From the NCBI GenBank assembly GCA_964016885.1, contig OZ024740.1, positions 86,862,001 to 86,926,000 of the forward strand: 64,000 bases of DNA, in the 5' to 3' direction. A program made the translations under genes and the position numbers. Numbering within the stretch: position 1 is the stretch's first letter; every line of letters begins with the position of its first letter. The notes beneath the pieces were generated by a model. That model ran no database searches. It saw nothing but the letters and a program-made list of their open reading frames with translations, and was not told the DNA's origin. This document shows, one piece after another, positions 6,677 through 48,310 of the stretch. This DNA is from Eledone cirrhosa. Lineage: Eukaryota.

Positions 6677-6852
6677 GAAATATATATATATGTATATATG
6701 TATCCAAAATTAAATTAAGGGTGTCATGTCAGAGAGACATGTACCATATCCACTGTAGAATATGCTCAAAGATTCCAATGAATATATCCGAGCATTTCAT
6801 ATCAACTATGTCAATCAATTTCTAGTTGATATGTATATATATATATATATAT

Positions 6853-7194
6853 GGAGGCACATGGCTTAGTGGTTAGAACATTGGCCTTGCAATCGAAAGG
6901 TTGTGAGTTCAATTCTCAGACCGGGTGATGTGTTGTGTCCTTGAGCAAGACACTTTATTTCACATTGCTCCAGTTTACTCAGCTGTAGAAATGAGATGAT
7001 AGGGACTGGGGGTCCCTATCATTCCACTGCAAAGTGGTTGTGGAGGTGCCACGGCAAAAAACACCCAGCACTCACTGTAAATGAGGTTGGTGTTAGGAAG
7101 GGCATCCAGCTGTAGAAATCAAGCCAGAATCAGTTCCCGTCCCACCCTTGCAAGCAGAGAAAAGCAGACGTAAAATGATGATGATGATGATGAT
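6853..7194 (+). mobile_element. tRNA-derived SINE family B, full length, inserted in (TA)n
   Basis: TGGCTTAGTGGTTAGA A box, GAGTTCAATTCT B box, GTGTCCTTGAGCAAGACACT central motif, and an RTE-like tail ending in (ATG)n. Confidence 0.9.
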
Positions 7195-7482
7195 ATATAT
7201 ATATATATACATATGTTTATATATCAGGACTCTTTGAAGAAATGTTTATATATCAGGACCTTTGAAGAAATGGTCTTGCTGATTATATCAAAACTGGTTA
7301 GACAGAATTCGATGAAGGGGACATGTATCTATGGTTGTTCAAGAGATATAATGGGATTACAGGCTGGTTAAAGGAGAAGATAAACATTGTATACAGCAAA
7401 TGTATAGGAAACACACAAACCACACATGGAATATATTCCTTCAATTGCCTAGGTGGCTCTCTAGACGTCTTGTATGTATCTA

Positions 7483-17408: not shown

Positions 17409-17774
17409 ATACATATTTACATATACGTATCAATGCATATATATATATATGAAAAATGGCGTGCTGCGTTGTTGCAAATGGGATACATATGAATAAAATT
17501 AGAGCAAGAAGACAGGACTGTCCGTCATCAGTGATCTTCCAGCCATCATCGGTATTTCTTCGCATTAAAGACCATATACCTCCGGCTGGTGCGAGCAATA
17601 ACTAAAAAAAGTTATTGGGACGAGTAGAATTGGGTGAGAAAGCGAGACGTGTAAACAAACAGAGATGGTAATGCAACGGAAAGAGAGGAAGATGAGAGAC
17701 AAGGCCGTGATATATGTGAACTTAAGTTAGAGAAAATCGTGAACGAGGAGAGACAGACGCGTCCACACACCGTG

Positions 17775-19140
17775 AGATGGGTGGGTGTGTAGAGATGGGT
17801 GGGTGTGTAGAGACGAGTGGGTGTGTAGAGATGGGTGGGTGTGTAGAGACGAGTGGGTGTGTAGAGATGGGTGGGTGTGTAGAGACGAGTGGGTGTGTAG
17901 AGATGGGTGGGTGTGTAGATGGGTGGATGTATAGAGATGGGTGGGTGTGTAGAGATGGGTGGGTGTGTAGATGGGTGAGTGTGTAGAGACGAGTGGGTGT
18001 GTAGAGATGGGTGGGTGTGTAGATGGGTGGATGTATAGAGATGGGTGGGTGTGTAGAGATGGGTGGGTGTGTAGATGGGTGAGTGTGTAGAGATGGGTGG
18101 ATGTGTAGAGATGGGTGGGTGTGTAGAGATGGGTGGGTGTGTAGAGATGGGTGGGTGTGTAGAGATGGGTGGGTGTGTAGAGATGGGTGGGTGTGTAGAT
18201 GGGTGGATGTATAGAGATGGGTGGGTGTGTAGAGATGGGTGGGTGTGTAGATGGGTGAGTGTGTAGAGAGGAGTGGGTGTGTAGAGATGGGTGGGTGTGT
18301 AGATGGGTGGATGTATAGAGATGGGTGGGTGTGTAGAGATGGGTGGGTGTGTAGATGGGTGAGTGTGTAGAGATGGGTGGATGTATAGAGATGGGTGGGT
18401 GTGTAGAGACGAGTGGGTGTGTAGAGATGGGTGGGTGTGTAGAGACGAGTGGGTGTGTAGAGATGGGTGGGTGTGTAGATGGGTGGATGTATAGAGATGG
18501 GTGGGTGTGTAGAGATGGGTGGGTGTGTAGATGGGTGAGTGTGTAGAGACGAGTGGGTGTGTAGAGATGTGTGGGTGTGTAGATGGGTGGATGTATAGAG
18601 ATGGGTGGGTGTGTAGAGATGGGTGGGTGTGTAGATGGGTGAGTGTGTAGAGATGGGTGGATGTGTAGAGATGGGTGGGTGTGTAAAGATGGGTGGGTGT
18701 GTAGAGATGGGTGGATGTGTAGCGATGGGTGGGTATGTAGAGACGGGTGGGTGTGTAGAGACGGGTGTGTGTGTAGAGATGGGTGGGTGTGTAGAGATGG
18801 GTGGGTATGTAGAGACGGGTGGATGTATAGAGATGGGTGGGTGTGTAGAGATGGGTGGGTGTGTAGAGATGGGTGGGTGTGTAGATGGGTGGGTGTGTAG
18901 ATGGGTGGGTGTGTAGAGATGGGTGGGTGTGTAGAGATGGGTGGGTGTGTAGAGATGGGTGGATGTGTAGAGATGGGTGGGTACGTAGAGACGGGTGGGT
19001 GTGTAGAGACGGGTGGGTGTGTAGAGATGGGTGGGTGTGTAGAGACGGGTGGGTGTGTAGAGACGGGTAGGTGTGTAGAGATGGGTGGATGTGTAGAGAT
19101 GGGTGGGTGTGTAGAGATGGGTGGATGTGTAGAGATGGGT
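17775..19140. repeat. G-rich 18-bp minisatellite (GAGATGGGTGGGTGTGTA)n with ~280-bp higher-order period, decaying into (TG)n-rich repeats to ~19510
   Basis: The unit is visible directly. ORF starts and ends in the track recur every 280 bp (18075/18355/18635; 17986/18266/18546). Confidence 0.95.
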
Positions 19141-19422
19141 GTGTGTGTATTGTGTGGTCTGAGTGTAGAGATGTGTGTGTGTGTATATTGTGTGGTCTGA
19201 GTGTAGAGATGTGTGTGTGTGTGTGTATTGTGTGGTCTGTGTTTAGAGATGTGTGTGTGTATTGTGTGGTCTGTGTTTAGAAATGTGTGTGTGTTGTGTA
19301 GTCTCTGTGTGTAATGATGTGTGTGTGTGTGTATTGTGTAGTCTGTGTGTAACGATGTGTGTGTGTATTGTGTGGTCTGTGTGTAAAGATGTGTGTGTGT
19401 ATTGTGTGGTCTGTGTGGAACG

Positions 19423-19630: not shown

Positions 19631-19694
<64 letters not shown>

Positions 19695-20035
19695 GGAGGC
19701 ACATGGCTTAGTAGTTAGAGCATTGGCCTTGCAATCGAAAGGTTGTGAGTTCAATTCTCAGACCGGGTGATGTGTTGTTTCCTTGAGCAAGACACTTTAT
19801 TTCACATTGCTCCAGTTTACTCAGCTGTAGAAATGAGATGATAGGACTGAGGTCCCTATCATTCCACTGCAAAGTGTTCGTGGAGGTGCCACGGCAAAAA
19901 AACACCCAGCACTCACTGTAAATGAGGTTGGTGTTAGGAAGGGCATCCAGCTGTAGAAATCAAGACAGAATCAGGTCCCGTCCCACCCTTGCAAGCAGGG
20001 AAAAGTGGACGTAAAATGATGATGATGATGGTGAT
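19695..20035 (+). mobile_element. SINE family B, full length, in (TA)n
   Basis: Near-identical to 6853-7194. Confidence 0.9.
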
Positions 20036-20789
20036 ATATATATATATATGGGGGGAGGGGGGTATATACATTTGTGTGTGTAGCATGTGTGTGAGGGTGT
20101 GTATGCATGTGTGTGTATATATGTATGTGTACTTTTTAACTAGATATATCCTGGTCAAGTAGTTAAGAGGTTCACTTTACAATTATGAGGTCCTGGGTTT
20201 GATCTGACCACATTCTATGTAGAGTATGTTTTACCATAACCTCATGTCCTCCTAAGCCTTCTGAGTGAAATTGAGGAGACAGAAACTGTGTGCAAGTGAA
20301 TCATTTGGATAGCCTTTACCTGTAATTCAAAGGGCCAGCTTGTCATAAGCTGTCATACTGAATCTCCCTGAGAATTACGTTAATGCTCCACATGTCTGTA
20401 GGATATTCAGCCAAATATATGTTAATTTCATGACCAAGCTGTTCCATTGATCAAACCACTGGAACACATCATCAAAACTGATAGAGATCTATTCGATTTG
20501 TGTATGTATGTGTGTATGTGAGTGTGAACGTAAGTGTGTGGGTACTTATGTGTATACATGTGTGTGTGTACTTATGTGTGTAGTATACAAGTTTGTGTAC
20601 TTATGTGAGTGCGTACGTATGTGTGTGTACACATGTATGTATTTATGTGTCTGTAACTGTGTGTGTTCGTGTGTGTACTTGTGCGTGCGCGCGTGCGTGT
20701 GTGTACGTACGTATGTGGGCGTGTACGTGGGTGTGTATATACGTATGTGCGTGTATATGTGTGAGTACATGTGTGTGTACTTATCTGTT

Positions 20790-23740: not shown

Positions 23741-26345
23741 CTGTAACACTGACCAACACACTAACACCATCCTGTAACACTGACCAACACACTAACACCA
23801 GCCTGTATCAATGACCAACACACTAACACCATCCTGTAACACTGACCAACACACTAACACCAGCCTGTAACACTGACCAACACACTAACACCATCCTGTA
23901 ACACTGACCAACACACTAACACCAGCCTGTATCAATGACCAACACACTAACACCAGCCTGTATCACTGACCAACACACTAACACCATCCTGTAACACTGA
24001 CCAACACACTAACACCAGCCTGTAACACTGACCAACACACTAACACCAGCCTGTATCAATGACCAACACACTAACACCAGCCTGTATCACTGACCAACAC
24101 ACTAACACCATCCTGTAACACTGACCAACACACTAACACCAGCCTGTATCAATGACCAATACACTAACACCAGTCTGTATCAATGACCAACACACCAACA
24201 CCAGCCTGTATCACTGACCAACACACTAACACCATCCTGTAACACTGACCAACACACTAACACCAGCCTGTATCAAAGACTAACACACTAACACCAGCCT
24301 GTATCACTGACCAACACACCAACACCAGCCTGTATCACTAACAAACACACTAACACCAGCCTGTATCAATGACCAACACACTAACACCATCCTGTAACAC
24401 TGACCAACACACTAACACCAGCCTGTATCAATGACCAACACACTAACACCAGCCTGTATCACTGACCAACACACTAACACCAGCTTGTATCAATGACCAA
24501 CACACTAACACCAGCCTGTATCAATGACCAACACACTAACACCAGCCTGTATCACTAACAAACACACTAACACCAGCCTGTATCACTGACCAACACACTA
24601 ACACCATCCTGTAACACTAACAAACACACTAACACCAGCCTGTATCACTGACCAACACACTAACACCAGCCTGTATCACTGACCAACACACTACTACCAG
24701 CCTGTATCACTGACCATCACACTACAACCAGCCTGTATCACTAACAAACACACTAACACCAGCCTGTATCACTGACCAACACACTAACACCAGCCTGTAT
24801 CACTGACCAACACACTAACACCATCCTGTAACACTGACCAACACACTAACACCAGCCTGTATCAATGACCAACACACTAACACCAGCCTGTATCACTGAC
24901 CAACACACTAACACCATCCTGTAACACTGACCAACACACTAACACCAGCCTGTATCAATGACCAACACACTAACACCAGCCTGTATCACTGACCAACACA
25001 CTAACACCATCCTGTAACACTGAGCAACACACTAACACCAGCCTGTATCAATGACCAACACACTAACACCAGCCTGTATCACTGACCAACACACTAACAC
25101 CATCCTGTAACACTGACCAACACACTAACACCAGCCTGTATCAATGACCAATACACTAACACCAGTCTGTATCAATGACCAACACACCAGCCTGTATCAC
25201 TGACCAACACACTAACACCATCCTGTAACACTGACCAACACACTAACACCAGCCTGTATCAAAGACTAACACACTAACACCAGCCTGTATCAAAGACTAA
25301 CACACTAACACCAGCCTGTATCACTGACCAACACACCAACACCAGCCTGTATCACTGACCAACACACTAACACCAGCCTGTATCAAAGACCAACACACTA
25401 ACACCAGCCTGTATTAATGACCAACACATTAACACCAGCCTGTATCACTGACCAACACACTAACACCAGCCTGTATCAATGACCAACACACTAACACCAG
25501 CCTGTATCACTGACCAACACACTACAACCAGCCTGTATCACTGACCAACACACTACAACCAGCCTGTATCAAAGACTAACACACTAACACCAGCCTGTAT
25601 CAAAGACTAACACACTAACACCAGCCTGTATCACTGACCAACACACCAACACCAGCCTGTATCACTGACCAGCACACTAACACCAGCCTGTATCAAAGAC
25701 CAACACACTAACACCAGCCTGTATCAAAGACCAACACACTAACACCAGCCTGTATTAATGACCAACACATTAACACCAGCCTGTATCAACGACCAACACA
25801 CTAACACCAGCCTGTATCAATGACCAACACACTAACACCAGCCTGTATCAATGACCAACACACTAACACCAGCCTGTATCACTAACAAACACACTAACAC
25901 CAGCCTGTATCACTGACCAACACACTAACACCAGCCTGTATCACTGACCAACACACTAACACCAGCCTGTATCACTGACCAACACACTAACACCAGCCTG
26001 TATCACTGACCAACACACTAACACCAGCCTGTATCAATGACCAACACACTAACACCAGCCTGTATCACTGACCAACACACTACAACCAGCCTGTATCACT
26101 GATCAACACACTACAACCAGCCTGTATCACTAACAAACACACTAACACCAGACTGTATCAATGACCAACACACTAACACCAGCCTGTATCACTGACCAAC
26201 ACACTAACACCAGCCTGTATCACTGACCAACACACTAACACCAGCCTGTATCACTGACCAACACACTAACACCAGCCTGTATCACTAACCAACACACTAA
26301 CACCAGCCTGTATCAATGACCAATGCACTAACACCAACCTGTATT
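23741..26345. repeat. 31-bp minisatellite (CTGTATCACTGACCAACACACTAACACCAGC)n, about 84 copies
   Basis: Period 31 (23741 to 23772) maintained over ~2.6 kb with recurring variants. Confidence 0.97.
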
Positions 26346-32639: not shown

Positions 32640-33035
32640 TCTCTTTGTTTCCAGCAGAGGTACTTACTTCCCAAGCATGTTCTATAGCATTCTTACTCTG
32701 TCTACTATGATTTCAGAATAATCACCTCCACAGCTAATTAGGTAATCTAGGTAGCAGAAGCCATTAAGATCTGGGTATTTAAAATAATTTACTGCTAATC
32801 TTATGCATCTGCTACATAAAATGTCCTTCTCTGTCAGATTGCCTGTGATCCCACTACATCTCTTGTGCACCCATAATTGTCACTAGGGACACTGTTTTGC
32901 ATACTTACCTACTCGTTTTCTGCATATGAAGCATGACCATTTCCCTGATAGCAGGAAAATCATGTCTTCTTTCCTGCTAACTAAAACATTTATCCTTGCT
33001 AGATTTTCTTTAAGACCTCTCTATTCTAGGTTTTT
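32640..33035 (-). mobile_element. RTE LINE fragment
   Basis: WSCFICRK..WVHKRCSGITGNL..CYLDYLISCGG, the same region as in the 29130-30312 copy. Confidence 0.7.
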
Positions 33036-34449: not shown

Positions 34450-34760
34450 ATAATTTATTAGAATTGGTGTTCTGAAATAGCGATATATATATGAATGTAT
34501 ATATAGTGTATTTTGCAATACACTGTATGCTTAATTAAACATTTTGAAGACCTTACGCTATTGTTTTAAAGTAATGACTATGTCACTTCTTTTTTCAGCA
34601 AACAAAGGGAGATAAGCTGACAGATCTCTGTTTCGTACTGTTGGTACTCCTCAGAGCTTACCACTCCCTTTGCTTGCTGAAAATTATGAATGTTAGATTC
34701 TTATAGAATTCCAGTAATAATCAGGAACTGATTATACAGAGCGGTTGCTGGTCCAGCAAT
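34450..34760 (-). mobile_element. Retrozyme-like non-coding element (copy 1)
   Basis: ~310-nt element containing an HHR. It is homologous to, and circularly permuted relative to, 40195-40546, and it abuts (TA)n. Confidence 0.8.
34592..34683 (-). ncRNA. Canonical type I hammerhead ribozyme
   Basis: Minus strand: caaagggag-tgg-taagct-CTGAGGA-gtac-caaca-gtac-GAAA-cag-agat-ctg-TC-agctta-t-ctccctttg. GUC cleavage is predicted between 34619 and 34618. Stem I is extended by ttcagcaa/ttgctgaa. Confidence 0.92.
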
Positions 34761-34761
34761 G

Positions 34762-34975
34762 AGTATCTCAGCCTTCAATGACTGGTAAGTAGTGTCAGTC
34801 GGTGTCTCCAATACGAGATCCTTAATAATTGGGAGAAGTGCCGGAGGAATGGTACTAAGGACGAGGGAACGTTGCTGTGCACGACGACGTTGTTAGCCTC
34901 GAAAAATGCTTCCATTTGAGCGAACCATAACTTCACATTGCCTGTGTAAGTAGGGAGAATAGAATGAGATGCCAT
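34762..34975 (-). pseudogene. Ty3/Gypsy gag N-terminal fragment (frameshifted)
   Basis: LPTYTGNVKLWFAQMEAFF..; in the shifted frame IKDLVLETPTDTTYQSLKAEIL, typical of Gypsy gag N-termini. Confidence 0.7.
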
Positions 34976-35097
34976 TGGTGTAATCTCTGTAAGAGGCCAA
35001 AATGCGTCTCCGTCAAAACAAATCCCTCAAACAAGAGGGGAAAAAAAAAAATCCGCTTGTTTTTCTCCAGAAGTCATGAGTTACGTCCCTTGGGGAC

Positions 35098-35436
35098 TGT
35101 AGTGACCCCTAGTGTCAACAACAGAAGTAAATGGAGTTACGTCCCCATGGGGACTATATATAGAGACAGCCAAAGCGCTCTATCTCTCTTTTCCAATCGC
35201 AGCAGCCCTGGAGAACGGAGGCGACTTCGCCCAGAACACGTGGGATGCAAATACCAGCCTACTCCAGTGAACATGTTAAGAGCAACTCTTTTTACTACCA
35301 ACAGCCTCATGAATCAGCTACACCATTACATCGTTCAACCTTCACAACTTGTGGTAATATGTTTATCATTCTATTTTGACTTCAATGAAGTAAACCTTTG
35401 TATATAAACCAAAAAGCCATTCTTGTTATTCCTACA
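35098..35436. mobile_element. Putative LTR
   Basis: TGTAG...CTACA termini, TATA-like tatatatag at ~35156 and AGTAAA near the right end; adjacent to the gag fragment. Confidence 0.55.
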
Positions 35437-35493
35437 ACTATTATCTATACTAATACCATTCTTCTAAAATATTACTGACCCCACCAGTTACCA

Positions 35494-35688
35494 ACCATAT
35501 ATACTCGAATTTAAGTCAACCCCACTATTTTATGTCTGAGAAATGGGCAAAAATTCAAACCTTATTTATGTAGAATTTGAAGTTGGTGAAAATTGTCAAA
35601 ATATTGACCCCAAATATAAGCTGACCCCTTTCTATGATCGATTTTTTTTGTCACATATTCTTTGGCTTATATTCGAGTATATATTGTA
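35494..35688. mobile_element. MITE (Tc1/mariner-pogo type) with ~23-bp TIRs
   Basis: ccatatatactcgaatttaagtc ... ggcttatattcgagtatatattg. Confidence 0.7.
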
Positions 35689-38600
35689 CTTCTCAGCCGT
35701 AGCCATATAAACGTCTCCACTGATACTTCTACATTGTTTTAATGATTCTCTTCCAGTTTGTTCTCATAATGTCCAGAGTTCATAGTGGAGCAGGAGTTGA
35801 CAGTTATTCAGAGAAATATTTATTTACACCTCTTACCTACAATTTATGCATGTGTGAGAATTCAGTACACTTGGTAAGGTGTTTGGCATTAGGAAGGACA
35901 TCCAGTAATAGAAACCTTGCTAAATATGAAATATATTACCATGAGGTTGATCCAACAAGTCTGGACTCAAATTGTGACAACCCATATCTACATGGAAAGT
36001 GGGCATAAATTGATGATGATGATGACTGTCATATTCAGTAATGTTCTTGGAATTTGAAACTGAAGCTTTATTCAAACCATGGCAATAGATTGCACTCTAT
36101 ATTCAAAATATCCTTGTAACAGTTGTGATGTCACTTGCTCATTCTGGAATTGAACTTATGCCTATCAGGTAAACCACCACACTAAATGCATAATTAAAGC
36201 ATATATTGACCATGCTATTGTTAAACATCTCCCAACATTGTTCCCAAGATTTCATCTCATTAGATCTTTGTTCATCTCCTCTCTGATCTTGACAGCACTG
36301 AAAGTGTGATCTTCATATTCCTTATTCAATAAGATTTCATAGTTACACTTCATGACTCTGGCAATTTTAAGAACATTTCACAAACACCACTTTTGATCTT
36401 TTGACATTGACTGAAAATGTTAGTACTTTACTAAAGATGTAAAGAATTAATGGTTAAAAGTTAATATCAAGATAAGAATGAAGTGTTCAGTGATGAAATG
36501 CTTTTTTTTTTTTGTTTTTGTTTTCTTTTTAGTTTAGGGTGCATGCAGAGCTGAAGAGTTCATATTATCCCACCAAGGTTAACTTTGCCTTTCATCCTTA
36601 CAGGGTCGATAAAATAAGATAACAGCAATGCTCTGAGATAATTGCTGGCCTTGTGCCAAAAGTAGAAACAATTATAATCATTAGGGCCCTAGTTTTGATC
36701 CTAATGCATGGCAGCTTGGGGATGCATTTTTTATTATAACCTCATATTGACCCAAACCCAGAGAGTGAAATTGAATAGATAAAAACTCTGTTGAAGCCCA
36801 TCTAACAGACTGCACCTTTTATTTAAGAAGACCAGCCATGTCACATATTGTACCATGCTGATTCAGGCTGAGCAATATGTTAACAATATATGACTGTGCA
36901 ATACGCATTAATTTAACAAGTTGAACATTCACTTGATCAAACAACTGAATGCTCAATGTTGAAAGTGATAGAGGATCCATCATTATTGAGTTTTTTTGGA
37001 AATGAGAAATGCTCTCACAGCATTCAAAGAAATGCAAAACTGATGGTAGCTGATGTCAAACATATTTTGATGTTGAAACATGTGCAGGAAATATAAATCA
37101 TTAGACCAACTCCTTAAACAAGACAATGATGTTCAACCTGCTAGAATAAGTAGCTAAACCTTTAATTTGAGATAATTTTTACTTTAAGATTTTAAGGGGG
37201 GCGGGCTTAAAGGTAAAAATACTTTTGATTATCATATTATATTATCAAATAAATAATAATTTATCTATTATGCAATCTTTAGATTTTTTTTTTTTATATC
37301 CACCAGCAAAAACTTAATTTTGAGCTACTTTTTAATATGATACATTATGTTTTATTAAATCGATGTGGCAACCCTGGTCCCCAGATTTTATGGCTGCCAA
37401 AAATACCTAGAATGTCTGTGTACTTCTCAATTGTGTGCCTATGTTAACTAAAGGTTTCTTCCAAAATAACCTTCAACAACTGACTCAATATATATTCCAA
37501 CAAAATATGAAGGGTTCCTGAATATCTTTAATAAATCTTGATTTCTAAAATCAACTGGAAAATAATATTCTGTTGGAATCTATCAAAGATATAAGAACTA
37601 ATTTGAAAACAAAATCATTTTACATGGAATCGTTAAAGCATCATAAAAAATACCTTGTTGTATATGATCCTTCCAGGATCAATAATATAAAATACCAGTC
37701 AAGTATTAGGTTCAATATCAATTGTCCACTTTCCTGCAAAGATTCTAATCCTTCAACATGTACTCTATAATGTCCAGTATCCTGACATCAGCTCTCACAA
37801 ATTCTGTCTGTCTTCTTCTTTGCACCATTTGACACTTGTTTCATCCCAGCTGTTATCGTTCATACACATCACATGTCTATAACAGCGTGGGCACATTCCT
37901 TTCGTCATAGGAATTTGGAAGGGTCATCAGTACAGAGGATAACATATCTTGCAGCAGTAGTTTTGGCTCTCTGTGTTTTGATTTAAAATCCTACCAAGAT
38001 TAACTTCACCTTTCCAAAATTTATAAAAGAAAGTACTTGCCAATTATAGGAGTCTATATTGACTGTTTTTCTCCCTAAAACATTTCTAGCCTTTTGCTTA
38101 TGATATAAACAATTGTTTAGAAGAAAGTTCTAAATGATGCCCACGAAATCACTCTATTTTAACAGTAATTGAAAAACTTTCAGACAAAACTTTCTTTTCT
38201 CTAAAAGGAGAAATATACTGAACATTTTACAGAAAGATCTCACCAGAAACATGGTGTAATATTTATATAAGAAACAATAACTCTACATGAAAAGTCAGAG
38301 TAGTGGAAAGAACAAATAAAAGACCTGTAGTAGAATTTTAAGAATGCTTTTTAAATTTGTTTCAAATTATGATGTATTTCTCAATATTTTCAATGTCTAG
38401 ATGGAGAAACCTAATGGTTAAGAAATTAACTTCAGGTTCAATCCCACTGTGTGGAATTTTGACAACGTGCCTTTTACCATAGCTTCAGATTGACCCCAGC
38501 ATTGTGAGTGAAATTGCTCTTAGCTCATAGTCCATAGATGGCCATGGGAAGCACAATGCTGGTGTACAAGCACAGCTTGATGTATGTGAGCCTTCTTGAG

Positions 38601-38734
38601 AATTAGGTTATGTACACATGTCTGTGGAATGCTCAGTCACTTGTACATTCATTTCTCAAGCAGGCTGTTCAGCTGAATGAAAAAAAAGATGTATTCAAAA
38701 ATAAATCCGACCTTTTACGCTATTCTATCTATAT

Positions 38735-38970
38735 GACTGATGTACATGGATAATGATTGCTGGGTGAAGAAGTGCCGGGAAATCCCAGAAAAGGGAAGCT
38801 GCAATAGAGGTAGATTAAGGAAGTCCTCAGCAGAGGTGGAGAGAGCTGACCTCAAATTTCTGAGACTCACAGAGATGACGACGGAGGAATGCAGTAGGTG
38901 GAGAGATTTTGTGCTGAAAAGGACCCATCCAAGTGTGGAAAAACTGATGTAAAAACGATGATGATGATGA
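38735..38970 (+). mobile_element. RTE LINE 3' end
   Basis: MDNDCWVKKCREI..GRLRKS..RWRDFVLKRTHP plus an (ATG)n tail. Confidence 0.8.
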
Positions 38971-40194
38971 CTAGTATGCGCACATGTGTGTGTGTAGTCT
39001 ATTACTAAGTATGGAAAAGTATTGCCTTCAGATATGTGAAATATGTATGCTTTAATAAAAAATGAATACATAAACACATTAAAACTGGCCTTTAGCTTTC
39101 AATGTATTTTCTTCAGTTACTTATAAAAATAACCATCTATAATGCAGCAGATTGTGGCAACATCTGCTAAGTTATTCCCTCAGCTATGGGTTTATAGCTT
39201 AACTTGGAGCCACATTTATAAAATTTGTGGTGTTGAATATAATTTTTTATCTAGCTTTGCCACTTAGAAAAATTTAGAGCTTCCTCCTACATTATAACAT
39301 ACTTTCCTAAATGGAAGGTTTGAGGAAAAGTTTTTAACGAAAATAGCACAGAAAAGGGGTATAAATATAAAAAGCTTCAGGTACAAATATAAATTCACTA
39401 TTATTGGCATTTATTTTAGAAGTCTTTTTTTTATTGTTATATAAAAGTAATTTTTTGTTTAATAGCAATAGTATATATGAATGTCAACCAATGAGAATAA
39501 TACAAAAATAATACAGGTTCATTTTAAATAGCCAAATAGAAGAGATCCTAGTAATTTACTTTAGTAAGCTGATGCAAGTTATTGTCAAATTATTGTAACA
39601 ATGTCTCAGTTAATAATATGACTTTCAACTAGAAAATTAAATATTAAGATACAAAAACCTCAAATGAATTTATTGAAATAGAATCAAATATTATTCGCAC
39701 TTTTCAAAGTTTACTAAATACTTTTTGGATGAGAAATAGATACATTGTTATCCTTGGGCTTAAAAGTATTACTTTCACATTCAATTTATTAGTAATTTAA
39801 GTTTTCCATAATATATACCATTTTTCAGAGAACTTTAAGATGAAATTAAAAGTATAGTTCTAAAAAATGAAGAAAAGATTCTTCTTTTTCCTCGTTGCCT
39901 ACAAAGAGAGAAAAACATATTACCTTCTCCAGCCTATATACTGCAGAAGACTTTGTATATCATAAAATATAATTTTTATTTTATAGCATTTATTAATGTC
40001 TGAGAAACCAAAGAATTTATTCAGATATGCAAACAAACATTTGTGTTGGCAGCTAACAAAACCTGCCTTTACATCCAAAACACAGCTTCTAAGAATACCA
40101 TGTACATAGCACTGATACCAAACCAGTCCTTATTCTAGGATATGTTGTTTCTTTTAAGGTGTGTTTTAGGATATACTCTTTATTTAAGGTATGG

Positions 40195-40545
40195 TTAATT
40201 AAACATACAGTATATTGCCAAATATACTATACATGCATTCATGTAAACATCGCTATTTCAGAGCACCAATCCTAATACCTAATTTTTGCTGGACCAGCAA
40301 TCGCTCTGTATAATCAGCTCCTGGTTATTACTGGAAATCTATAAGAACCCAGCTTCTATAATTTTCGGCAAAGGCAGGGGAGTACGTGGTTCTGATGAAT
40401 GCCAACCAGCGTGAAACAGACTGTCAGCTGCTCTCCCTTCTTTTGCTGAAAAGAAGTGACATAGTCACTACTTTAAAACTGATACCGTATGGTCTTCTAA
40501 ATGTTTTTAATTAAACATACGGTATATTGCCAAATTTACTATACA

Positions 40546-40546
<1 letters not shown>
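40195..40546 (+). mobile_element. Retrozyme-like element (copy 2): 312-nt monomer plus 40-nt terminal redundancy
   Basis: ttaattaaacatac(a/g)gtatattgccaaat(a/t)tactatacat at 40195 and 40507, an internal HHR, and a run into (TACA)n(TA)n. Confidence 0.85.
40362..40452 (+). ncRNA. Type I hammerhead ribozyme
   Basis: gggag-tac-gtggtt-CTGATGA-atgc-caacca-gcgt-GAAA-cag-a-ctg-TC-agctgc-t-ctccc. GUC cleavage is predicted after 40425. Confidence 0.85.
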
Positions 40547-40633
<87 letters not shown>

Positions 40634-40637
<4 letters not shown>

Positions 40638-40972
40638 GCACATGGCTTAGTGGTTAGAGCATTGGCCTTGCAATCAAAAGGTTGTGAGTTCAATTCTCAG
40701 ACTGGGTGATGTGTTGTTTCCTTGAGCAAGACACTTTATTTCACATTGCTCCAGTTTACTCAGCTGTAGAAATGAGGTGATAGGGACTGGGGTCCATATC
40801 ATACCACTGCAAAGTGGTCGTGGAGGTGCCACGGCAATAAAGCACCCAGCACTCACTGTAAATGAGGTTGGTGTTAGGAAGGGCATCCAGCTGTAGAAAT
40901 CAAGTCAGCATCAGTTCCCGTCCCACCCTTGCAAGCAGGGAAAAAGCGGACGTAAAATGAAATGATGATGAT
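40634..40972 (+). mobile_element. SINE family B, full length, in (TA)n
   Basis: Near-identical to 6853-7194. Confidence 0.9.
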
Positions 40973-43297
40973 ATATATATATATATCTATATCAGCATTC
41001 CATCATAATTTTATGTAAAAACCTTTGTCTAGTAATGTTCCAATAAATAATTGTTTCTACTTTAGGCACAAGGCCAGCAATCAACCAGTGCATTACTGGT
41101 ACTTTAATGTTCCAATAAATAATGCTTTCTAACATAGGCACAAGGTTGGCAATTGGGGAAAAGGGAAAATCTTTTGTATTAACTTCAGTACTTAATTGGT
41201 ATTGTATTTTATTGACACTGGAAGAATGAAACACAAAGTTGAGCTTGGTGGGATTTGAAAGTAGAATGCTGGAACAAATACTTCTACACATTTGTCTGAT
41301 GCTTCAACAACTTCGCAAATCCACTATCCTAAATCACAAACTTAATAATGAGAAAATTAGTTATTTTACTAAATTCTTCCAAATTCTTAATTATTTTCAA
41401 AGTTATATGAAAATCAGAGGCAGTGTCCCCCATCAAAAATAGAGTGACAAAAGGGTTTCTTTAAGTAAATAACATTTTATAATAGAAGAAAAAATGGCTT
41501 TGGGGATATTTTGCTGAAATCATGAAAGCAGTTTTCAATAAGTATATTTACCAGGGAAACATCACAAAGAAATACAACTGAAATTTGTAATTTAGTTTCC
41601 CTGGGAGAAGAAACATCATTAGTAAAAATAAAAAAAATAAAAAAATAAACTTTGAAGACAACAAAATTACAACAAGAAGCAGATTTACTTTAATATAAAT
41701 ACTTTTCTTTATATGACGCATTTGCTCACTTAAGAGAGATAGTTGCTTTGTCACAGCAGTTATTCATCACCTGCTACAGTTGAGGAAGTCATATTCTAAA
41801 AAGAGGTCATCAGTTGCTACAAATGTCATTAGTTAGTGGGTGAGGCTTTGCTTTATTCCTTAGACTGGCACCAGCTCATGTAGAAAATCTTATACACACC
41901 TTTATATTTAAGGCCTCCTGGAGGGGAAAATACTTTTCAACAAGAACAAAAAAGAAACAAAATTATAATAAATAAAATAAATCTCTCTCTCTATATATAT
42001 ATATGCATATATATATATATATATATATATATGCATATATATATATACGCATATATATATATATATATATACGCATATATATATACGCATATATATATAT
42101 TCACATAGATACATACGCATATATATATACACACACATATGTATATACACAGATACATATATATATATACACATGCATATACATATATGTATACATGTGC
42201 TGAACCGTCATCAGTTCTGACAACATGTGATCCAGTTGCTTGAACAATGAAACAGTCTGCTCATGAAATTAGCATGAACATGGCTTAGCATTCCCGCAGA
42301 CATGTTCATCTTTAACATATTTCACAGGAAGATTCAGCATGACACAAAGTGTGACATAGCTAGCCCTCTGAATTACAGATACAACTAATTTTTTCCATGA
42401 GTGGCCTGAGCAGTATGATATATAGTCTTGCACAAGGATATAATGTGCTGCCAAAATCAAAATGTATATATACACATATGTGAATACATACATATATATG
42501 AAGCAACTAAAATGGTTGACATAAGAAAGGACATCCAGTTGTAAAACACTGCCTCAAAAAGTCCTGTCCAACCTATTACCAGTATGGAAAAGAAGACATA
42601 AAAACGATGATGACAATGAGGTTGATACATGTAGTTCAATAACCAATTAAAATATAATCTGAGTATGTGTGTGTACAAAAGAGTGAAAACTGAAATTTGT
42701 TTAACTAGACAATTCTCCAATTACCCTTTACTTCATGTTTTATAGTTTAAACACTCATATCATGTTTTACTATTAAAAAAAAAAAAAAAACAAGTATTGG
42801 TTACCTACCACACAAAGTGTTTTCCCTGATACTTTAGTGACTTCTATAAGAGTGCCTCAATGATAAACTAAAAATTATGGATAAAATTAATAAAGTGATT
42901 TGAGTTTACATTTTATGAAATATATAAACTTATGTATTTCCCATCAAACTGTTTCGTCTCAGTTTTAACATTTTGTGTATTGAGTAAACTATTGATTTTT
43001 TTTATTGAAAAGTTGGTGTTGGAACATATTATATTTGATGACAGATAAGATGCATGGGTATATAAGACATCCTGAATATTGAGAAAAAAATCAGGCAAGT
43101 ATCTAATGTTATTAAAACATTTAGCACAACTTTACATATAAAACCCAAATCATACATCTTGAGCCTTTCTTGATAAAAAAAAGAGGGCCTTATATGCCAT
43201 CAAACATGGCAATATCTTTTTATACCGTTCCGTTTCGGGGATCAGTCAGGGGTATTAAGAATTAGTTTACAAGTCGGAGAAATATGTTTATGGCCGG

Positions 43298-45601: not shown

Positions 45602-48310
<2,709 letters not shown>

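What the first reader, a model, noticed from the sequence alone, without database searches (positions are those of the whole stretch)
40362..40452. Second hammerhead shows compensatory changes relative to the first
Relative to copy 1 the core is conserved while the stems are rewritten but still pair. Stem I taagct/agctta becomes gtggtt/agctgc, stem II gtac/gtac becomes atgc/gcgt, and loop II CAACA becomes CAACCA. The stem I bulge UAC and CAA-type loop II recall the Sm-alpha tertiary contact. Stem III (acag-a-ctgt) is near-palindromic with a 1-nt loop, suggesting cleavage as a dimer within multimeric transcripts. The covariation implies selection on RNA structure during element propagation.
Basis: partly seen in the sequence, partly recalled or inferred. 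Interest (0 to 1): 0.75.

Follow-up and report, generated by a model that had tools for sequence, protein, structure and literature searches.

The report
Decayed hammerhead retrozyme copy, rewritten stems
This is one aged, likely inactive copy of a widespread 312-base jumping repeat that carries a self-cutting RNA motif; its stems differ from those of a neighbouring relative by matched base-pair swaps, as is already known for such animal elements.

Summary
The hammerhead at 40362-40452 is real (Rfam HH9, 22.8 bits, below cut-off). It lies in a ~312-nt non-coding unit; copy 1 (34759-34456, minus strand) is 78% identical. All 14 core bases match and 20 of 20 inner pairs pair in both copies (simulated P 1e-5 to 2e-3; two-sequence shuffle 28/500).

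Reads of other copies refine this. Four Watson-Crick double changes in helices I and II are subfamily-level, one hidden here by CpG decay. One 'compensated' pair is U·U in over 90% of related reads. The UAC bulge is not shared (UGG in copy 1; UAC or UGC in relatives). The short helix III is the subfamily norm, readable as 3 bp plus a triloop; dimer cleavage is plausible but untested, and this locus has only one ribozyme.

The family is high-copy, forms tandem and inverted joints, and ends in (TA)n at two sites 35 nt apart, a Penelope-like footprint. Verdict: a new member of the metazoan non-LTR retrozymes. The scan noted same-sized retrozyme families elsewhere in this genome; no sequence match linked them. 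One oddity: helices I and II differ at 55% of sites, the flanks at 13%.

The parts
40191..40554 (+). Copy 2 of the repeat: 5'-truncated partial tandem (about 1.15 units, period ~312 nt) with one hammerhead, running into (TACA)n/(TA)n
   Evidence: 40195-40250 repeats at 40507-40562 (49/56 identical); read depth jumps from single-copy at the 40188-40203 bin; joint 40521->40210 goes back 312
40362..40452 (+). Type I hammerhead with a long outer helix I
   Evidence: HH9 22.8 bits, E 0.0016 for 281 nt, gathering score 52
40386..40391 (+). Helix I proximal 5' strand (pairs with 40426-40431); bulge 40383-40385 lies just 5'
40392..40398 (+). Core CUGAUGA
40399..40412 (+). Helix II (4 bp; A10.1-U11.1 at its base instead of the usual G-C) and loop CAACCA
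   Evidence: pair probability 0.99-1.0
40413..40425 (+). GAAA, short helix III (40416-40424) and GUC; predicted cleavage after 40425
   Evidence: no indel here in >=8% of related reads
34456..34759 (-). Copy 1: single 5'-truncated unit of a sister subfamily, ends in (TA)n
   Evidence: (78% identity over 335 columns)
34592..34683 (-). Copy 1 hammerhead, helices I proximal, II and III all Watson-Crick
40540..40633 (.). (TACA)n/(TA)n tract at the 3' end (inferred insertion target)
   Evidence: family ends followed by TA repeats (table 7)

Best explanation
The stretch is a type I hammerhead motif inside a ~312-nt, protein-free, high-copy repeat, and this copy is likely a decayed, inactive single insertion of a non-LTR retrozyme that Penelope-like element enzymes likely paste into (TA)n tracts. 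In intact tandem arrays, transcription through successive units followed by cleavage after each GUC would release unit-length RNA, which a host ligase would likely circularise and a Penelope-type RT/endonuclease would copy back into DNA (inferred from the known families). Copies 1 and 2 belong to two subfamilies whose helices I and II differ by real compensatory pairs, because only RNAs that still fold and cut are likely propagated. After insertion this copy gathered C-to-T changes (three at CpG sites) that turn C-G pairs into U·G or A-U pairs and so look like covariation. It has one ribozyme, so it cannot cut out a unit in cis, and it is predicted to misfold. SHOWN: motif, pairing, family variants, tandem and inverted joints, TA-tailed fixed ends. 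INFERRED: cleavage, circles, Penelope mobilisation, inactivity.
For: Core 14/14 and pairs 20/20. 4 Watson-Crick double changes in helices I and II against family-majority letters, simulated P(both) 0.0005-0.004, and 2 more in the outer helix. 6095 contigs of one run and 4414 and 3804 reads of two others lay on the 479-nt stretch. Head-to-tail joint (back 312) and opposite-strand joints; ends at 40242 and 40277 followed by (TA)n in 255-338 reads and 34-36 contigs each. The 35-nt offset matches the 30-40 bp tail of Penelope-like insertions (10.1101/2021.04.23.441226). Unit 312 nt, 39% GC, circular fold z -4.4, within the retrozyme range (PMC7229834). 7 minority letters in this copy's 91 nt, 3 at CpG, with G-to-A raised at the partner CpG bases. 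Active fold 8.7 kcal/mol above the MFE and helix I pair probability about 0.01, against 1.7 kcal/mol and up to 0.97 in copy 1.
Against: No cleavage or RNA data. Read tables give letter shares, not linked haplotypes, are weighted by RAD depth, and include only reads >=80% like copy 2. Copy 1's own subfamily was not sampled, so its letters stand for one copy. Pair 40387/40430 is U·U in the family, and 40399 is T in 9-29% of reads with no partner change at 40412, so two common states break pairs. Core sites C3 and G8 are changed in 4-10% of reads, similar to other decaying sites, so the core is not visibly spared among genomic copies. Core versus flank divergence between the two copies is not significant (0/14 vs 21/163, p 0.38). 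Rfam score is below the gathering cut-off, and copy 1 has no hammerhead hit. No Penelope ORF in 63 reading frames between the copies. Nearest-neighbour energies ignore Mg2+ and tertiary contacts.
Confidence: 0.8

Rival explanations
1. Module exchange: the two subfamilies share one chassis but carry central ribozyme modules of different, older origin, joined by template switching during reverse transcription or by recombination. The pairing is still selected, but the changes did not build up stepwise in this lineage. Compatible with the retrozyme identity.
For: Central non-core sites differ at 14/34 (plus 2 indels), the outer helix at 7/41, the flanks at 21/163 (p 0.0003 central vs flanks; p 0.46 outer helix vs flanks). 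Unpaired bulge and N7 positions differ too. Flank depth is about 2-5 times ribozyme depth when reads are laid on copy 2, as if other ribozyme versions share these flanks.
Against: Paired positions can drift fast through G·U intermediates while flanks are held by protein recognition; 5 of 6 double changes are transition pairs. Hammerheads of Penelope-like elements are reported as extremely variable within a genome (PMC4209133). Restriction sites and truncation also shape the depth.
Confidence: 0.3
2. Obligate dimer switch: single units fold inactive, with UCUG of the core pairing to CAGA of helix III, and cut only when two tandem units swap strands to build a long helix III.
For: Helix III hairpin +2.1 vs duplex -6.9 kcal/mol in copy 2, and -1.8 vs -12.2 in copy 1. 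Both keep one extra complementary pair usable only between units. The core/helix III mispairing is the MFE in both monomers. For copy 1 the active dimer (-89.8) beats two MFE monomers (-84.6). Copy 2's subfamily lacks G10.1-C11.1, and the axolotl Amex2 ribozyme, weak at that place, gains from dimers (PMC7229834). Tandem units exist.
Against: Any hairpin is self-complementary. Helix III here has as many pairs as the invertebrate type reported to cleave efficiently as monomers. A 20-bp outer helix would fold locally first (inference). For copy 2 the active dimer (-71.3) is less stable than two misfolded monomers (-77.6). This locus has one ribozyme.
Confidence: 0.25
3. Solo pseudo-LTR of an autonomous Penelope-like element rather than an independently copied retrozyme.
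For: Partial tandem, inverted joints, TA target and 35-nt tail are features of Penelope-like elements. Retrozymes derive from pLTRs (10.64898/2026.07.22.740005).
Against: The unit's 3' end runs on into its own 5' part (joints 40476-40533 to 40195-40255, table 5c), not into coding sequence. No RT or GIY-YIG hit in 63 frames. Canonical ribozyme with helix III rather than the minimal type typical of these elements.
Confidence: 0.12
4. DNA-level repair of an inverted repeat (template switching) made the matched changes, with no selection on RNA.
For: The element is a long imperfect hairpin.
Against: Double changes concentrate in the 4-bp helix II. All 3 single-sided changes that keep pairing are A/G opposite T on the sense strand, none A·C (small n). 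An intact 14-nt catalytic core has no DNA-level explanation.
Confidence: 0.04

Closest known systems
Metazoan non-LTR retrozymes (coral, mussel, axolotl; Cervera and de la Pena 2020, PMC7229834)
   Same: Type I hammerhead in a 150-450 bp, low-GC, ORF-less, tandem-capable repeat in thousands of copies; several ribozyme families per genome; well-paired circular fold
   Different: Family-specific sequence; 3-bp helix III with triloop and A10.1-U11.1; no expression, cleavage or circle shown; this copy is a solo unit. No cephalopod is named in the main text; its supplement could not be read
Retrozymes as non-autonomous derivatives of Penelope pLTRs (Li, Clavereau, Pollet 2026, 10.64898/2026.07.22.740005)
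   Same: Monomer/dimer/multimer organisation; solo copies count as inactive offspring; insertion marks typical of Penelope-like elements
   Different: That survey covers vertebrates, insects and a coral; the partner element was not identified here
Rfam Hammerhead_HH9 (RF02275)
   Same: 6-bp helix I, UAC in the bulge, CAA-type 6-nt loop II, 4-bp helix II, GUC
   Different: 22.8 bits vs cut-off 52; mobile multi-copy repeat; copy 1 is not hit
Axolotl HHR_Amex2 and newt satellite 2 dimer-dependent hammerheads
   Same: Weak helix III; U·U at the base of helix II occurs here as a 9-29% variant
   Different: Helix III is longer here than in Amex1/newt; dimer dependence untested

Membership tests
Type I hammerhead ribozyme | CUGANGA, GAAA and UH core in type I order with three helices | tested here: met
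Type I hammerhead ribozyme | G10.1-C11.1 pair typical of canonical motifs (PMC4209133) | tested here: not met
   A-U in copy 2 and its subfamily, U·U in 9-29%; G-C in copy 1. Typical rather than obligatory
Type I hammerhead ribozyme | Loop 1 bulge / loop 2 tertiary-contact nucleotides | tested here: inconclusive
   UAC and CAACCA align to the HH9 consensus, but the bulge is UGC in up to 48% of reads and UGG in copy 1
Type I hammerhead ribozyme | Self-cleavage | not testable with these tools
   needs an in vitro assay
Rfam HH9 (RF02275) | Score at or above 52 bits | tested here: not met
   22.8 bits
Non-LTR retrozyme | 150-450 bp unit, GC below 50%, type I hammerhead, no ORF | tested here: met
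   312 nt, 39% GC; no ORF of 60 aa or more covers the ribozyme or the full unit
Non-LTR retrozyme | Tandem repeats of the unit, many copies | tested here: met
   family level: head-to-tail joints and 6095 contigs laid; this locus is only a partial tandem
Non-LTR retrozyme | [quoted passage not shown] | tested here: not met
   one ribozyme at this locus
Non-LTR retrozyme | Linear and circular unit-length RNA in tissue | not testable with these tools
   no RNA run was listed
Penelope-like element pLTR | Adjacent RT and GIY-YIG ORF | tested here: not met
   0 of 63 frames in 34760-40190; rest of the genome not available
Penelope-like element pLTR | Partial tandem or inverted insertions, microsatellite target, 30-40 bp tail | tested here: met
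   tables 5 and 7

The most novel reading that the evidence does not exclude
Retrozyme subfamilies in this genome share one mobilisation chassis but exchange, or rewrite 3-4 times faster, a ~50-nt catalytic cassette, and each cassette is a dimer-gated switch: the core pairs with helix III in a lone unit or circle and is released only in tandem transcripts. Thousands of dated copies would then give a natural record of ribozyme stem evolution through G·U and U·U intermediates, and a direct test of how circles avoid recutting.
Probability: 0.15. Interest if true: 0.55.

Novelty: new member of a known kind. Interest (0 to 1): 0.27.

Why it matters
On its own, little: animal retrozymes with covarying hammerhead stems are described, and this scan has noted many of them in this genome. 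The case shows that G·U 'covariation' read from one genomic copy can be CpG decay, and that decay can also hide a true double change. The contrast between fast-changing catalytic helices and conserved flanks, if confirmed family-wide, would say that the flanks carry sequence-specific signals for the mobilising enzymes while the ribozyme is held by shape only, or that ribozyme cassettes are swapped.

Tried and rejected
No genome is held, so no family alignment or R-scape-type test was possible. Rfam at gathering thresholds found only a tRNA-like head at 40641-40704. No RNA holder was listed; this says nothing on expression. A family-specific pattern gave 0 matches in metagenome, prokaryote and viral contigs. 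A generic pattern gave 12 metagenome loci, 0 of 12 similar to the element by blastn; by eye two are unrelated type III-like hammerheads. My first idea that the short helix III is a deletion private to copy 2 was wrong: no indel there at >=8% or >=4%. Read-end pile-ups at 40197, 40281, 40336, 40360 and 40512 were rejected as element ends: four sit on AATT and the fifth does in the majority allele, so they look like RAD restriction cuts. An RNA-editing signature in this copy was not seen (3 A-to-G among about 14 minority letters in the rows shown; one search hid 122 of 162 rows). A Penelope ORF between the two copies was not found. Sequence look-ups in earlier findings gave no look-alikes, so identity with the 310/311-nt families noted elsewhere is not shown. 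Literature searches for cephalopod retrozymes (term counts) listed none; one supplement was unreadable and one file unsearched. The fold energy of the family-majority ribozyme was not computed.

Full report
Observation. The window holds exactly two type I hammerhead motifs under a relaxed descriptor: 40362-40452 on the plus strand (core at 40392) and 34683-34592 on the minus strand (core at 34654). None appeared in 300 block-shuffled windows. Rfam gives the plus copy a sub-threshold HH9 match (22.8 bits, E 0.0016 in 281 nt, cut-off 52) and copy 1 none. Of 20 inner pairs, all pair in both copies: 12 unchanged, 4 changed on one side to G·U, 4 on both sides, of which 3 are Watson-Crick. The 14 core bases are identical. 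Placing the same number of substitutions at random gives this outcome with P 1e-5 to 2e-3, depending on scope and transition bias. The two-sequence shuffle cannot go below about 1/16 and gives 28/500. Two details are wrong as stated: the UAC bulge is not in copy 1 (UGG), and the 1-nt loop is particular to copy 2's type (copy 1 has AGAU).

The element. The two regions are 78% identical over 335 columns. Copy 2 is preceded by the 3' part of its own unit (40191-40277), giving a partial tandem of period about 312. A full unit is 39% GC and folds well as a circle (z -4.4; copy 1 -6.4; 60 shuffles). No genome is held, so I laid public DNA runs on the locus. 6095 contigs of one run and 4414 and 3804 reads of two others fit the 479-nt stretch, the flank left of about 40188 being single-copy. 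Summed depth suggests thousands of copies or more, but it is not a copy number. The reads show a head-to-tail joint going back 312 nt, other joints from the unit's 3' part back to its start, and opposite-strand joints. They also show two fixed ends, after 40242 and 40277, both followed by (TA)n. Copy 2 ends at the first type and copy 1 at the second. Partial tandems, inverted arms, microsatellite targets and a 30-40 bp tail are marks of Penelope-like insertion (10.1101/2021.04.23.441226, passages). No RT or GIY-YIG domain was found in 63 reading frames between the copies.

Testing the covariation. One search lists every letter seen in at least 8% of reads over 40350-40476 (30 rows, none hidden; 823 contigs, 673 and 503 reads). 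This copy carries the minority letter at seven places: 40370, 40373, 40390, 40400, 40430, 40444 and 40447 (shares). Three are C-to-T at CpG sites, with G-to-A raised on the partner base for two of them, which is ordinary decay after insertion. So the U·G pairs at 40390/40427 and 40400/40411 are C-G in most relatives. This removes two wobbles from the evidence but reveals a hidden double change (U-A in copy 1 vs C-G). Pair 40387/40430, counted as compensated, is U·U in 93-98% of reads; a rare G makes it pair here. Against majority letters, helices I and II show 4 Watson-Crick double changes, 1 G·U change and 1 broken pair out of 10 (P 0.0005-0.004), and the outer helix adds 2 double changes. 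Against the reading: 40399 is T in 9-29% of reads without a partner change, and core C3 and G8 are altered in 4-10%. The cleavage triplet is GUU in 24-29% (tolerated, from established knowledge). Limits: shares are unlinked, RAD-weighted and biased to reads like copy 2, and copy 1's subfamily was not sampled.

Dimer idea. No indel is listed in helix III, so the short form is the subfamily norm. As a monomer it is 3 bp plus a triloop (+2.1 kcal/mol); as a duplex between units it is 8 pairs (-6.9). Copy 1 gives -1.8 and -12.2. In both monomers the MFE pairs core UCUG with CAGA of helix III. For copy 1 the strand-swapped active dimer beats two monomers (-89.8 vs -84.6); for copy 2 it does not (-71.3 vs -77.6). 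Published invertebrate retrozymes with a two-pair helix III cleave efficiently alone, while axolotl motifs gain from dimers (PMC7229834, results parts 1-2 of 3; PMC7761336, passages; PMC4209133 and PMC6155905, passages). Dimer enhancement is therefore likely possible but obligate dimer cleavage is unproven, and this locus has a single ribozyme.

State of this copy. Its active fold lies 8.7 kcal/mol above the MFE and proximal helix I has pair probability about 0.01, against 1.7 kcal/mol and up to 0.97 in copy 1. With one ribozyme it fails the two-unit criterion for an active retrozyme (10.64898/2026.07.22.740005, parts 1-3 of 5; supplements not seen). It is most likely a dead insertion (inference).

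An oddity. Helices I and II differ at 11 of 20 sites, the flanks at 21 of 163 (p 5e-5). All central non-core sites differ at 14 of 34, the outer helix at 7 of 41. Either stems drift fast through wobble intermediates while the flanks are constrained, or the catalytic module was exchanged between subfamilies. High within-genome variability of such motifs is already reported (PMC4209133).

Comparison and verdict. The element matches metazoan non-LTR retrozymes in unit size, GC, ribozyme type, tandem habit and lack of ORF. Cleavage, circles and the partner Penelope element are untested. My searches listed no paper on cephalopod retrozymes (one supplement unreadable). That the host is an octopus rests on recalled repeat features and on earlier scan notes, not on a test here. 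Those notes describe 310/311-nt retrozyme families with the same two-end footprint in this genome, but no sequence match tied them to this one. New member of a known kind; interest 0.27.

Noticed in passing
window 34759-34456 (-) and 40191-40554 (+): The two copies point away from each other 5.4 kb apart, and each ends at a different one of the family's two fixed TA-tailed ends, like a two-armed insertion; but they belong to different subfamilies (78% identical), so two separate insertions are more likely.
   Followed up: partly
window 34761-35026 (-): Frameshifted DUF7041 fragment (E 1.4e-4 and 0.034, both below cut-off; a Gypsy gag-type domain by recall) joins directly to copy 1's truncated 5' end in the same orientation, and no continuation is seen past the copy; possibly a template switch or a deletion.
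   Followed up: partly
window 40634-40986, also 6829-7214, 19674-20049 and 6679-6374: tRNA-derived SINE-like repeat, 93% identical between the full copies, sitting in (TA)n; one is inserted in the TA tract right after copy 2.
   Followed up: no
window 23741-26344: 31-bp tandem array of 84 copies, 92% matches; other long arrays at 17774-19185 (18 bp) and 45604-48310 (TA-rich).
   Followed up: no
window 40453: About a quarter to a third of related RAD reads carry a 4-nt insertion just after the outer helix, and 40399 T, 40406 A and 40425 T have similar shares (20-29%) in those reads, suggesting a further sub-subfamily with U·U at the base of helix II and a GUU site.
   Followed up: no
run X4: A second organism holds the unit's flanks and the 312-nt tandem joint, but no contig was laid on the ribozyme (18 contigs in all), consistent with a more diverged ribozyme there.
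   Followed up: no
window 32685-32879 (-): Weak PHD_2 finger match (E 1.2e-5, below cut-off), probably a LINE ORF fragment.
   Followed up: no
L009 601-637 and L011 601-637: Unrelated type III-like hammerhead folds in two low-GC metagenome contigs.
   Followed up: no
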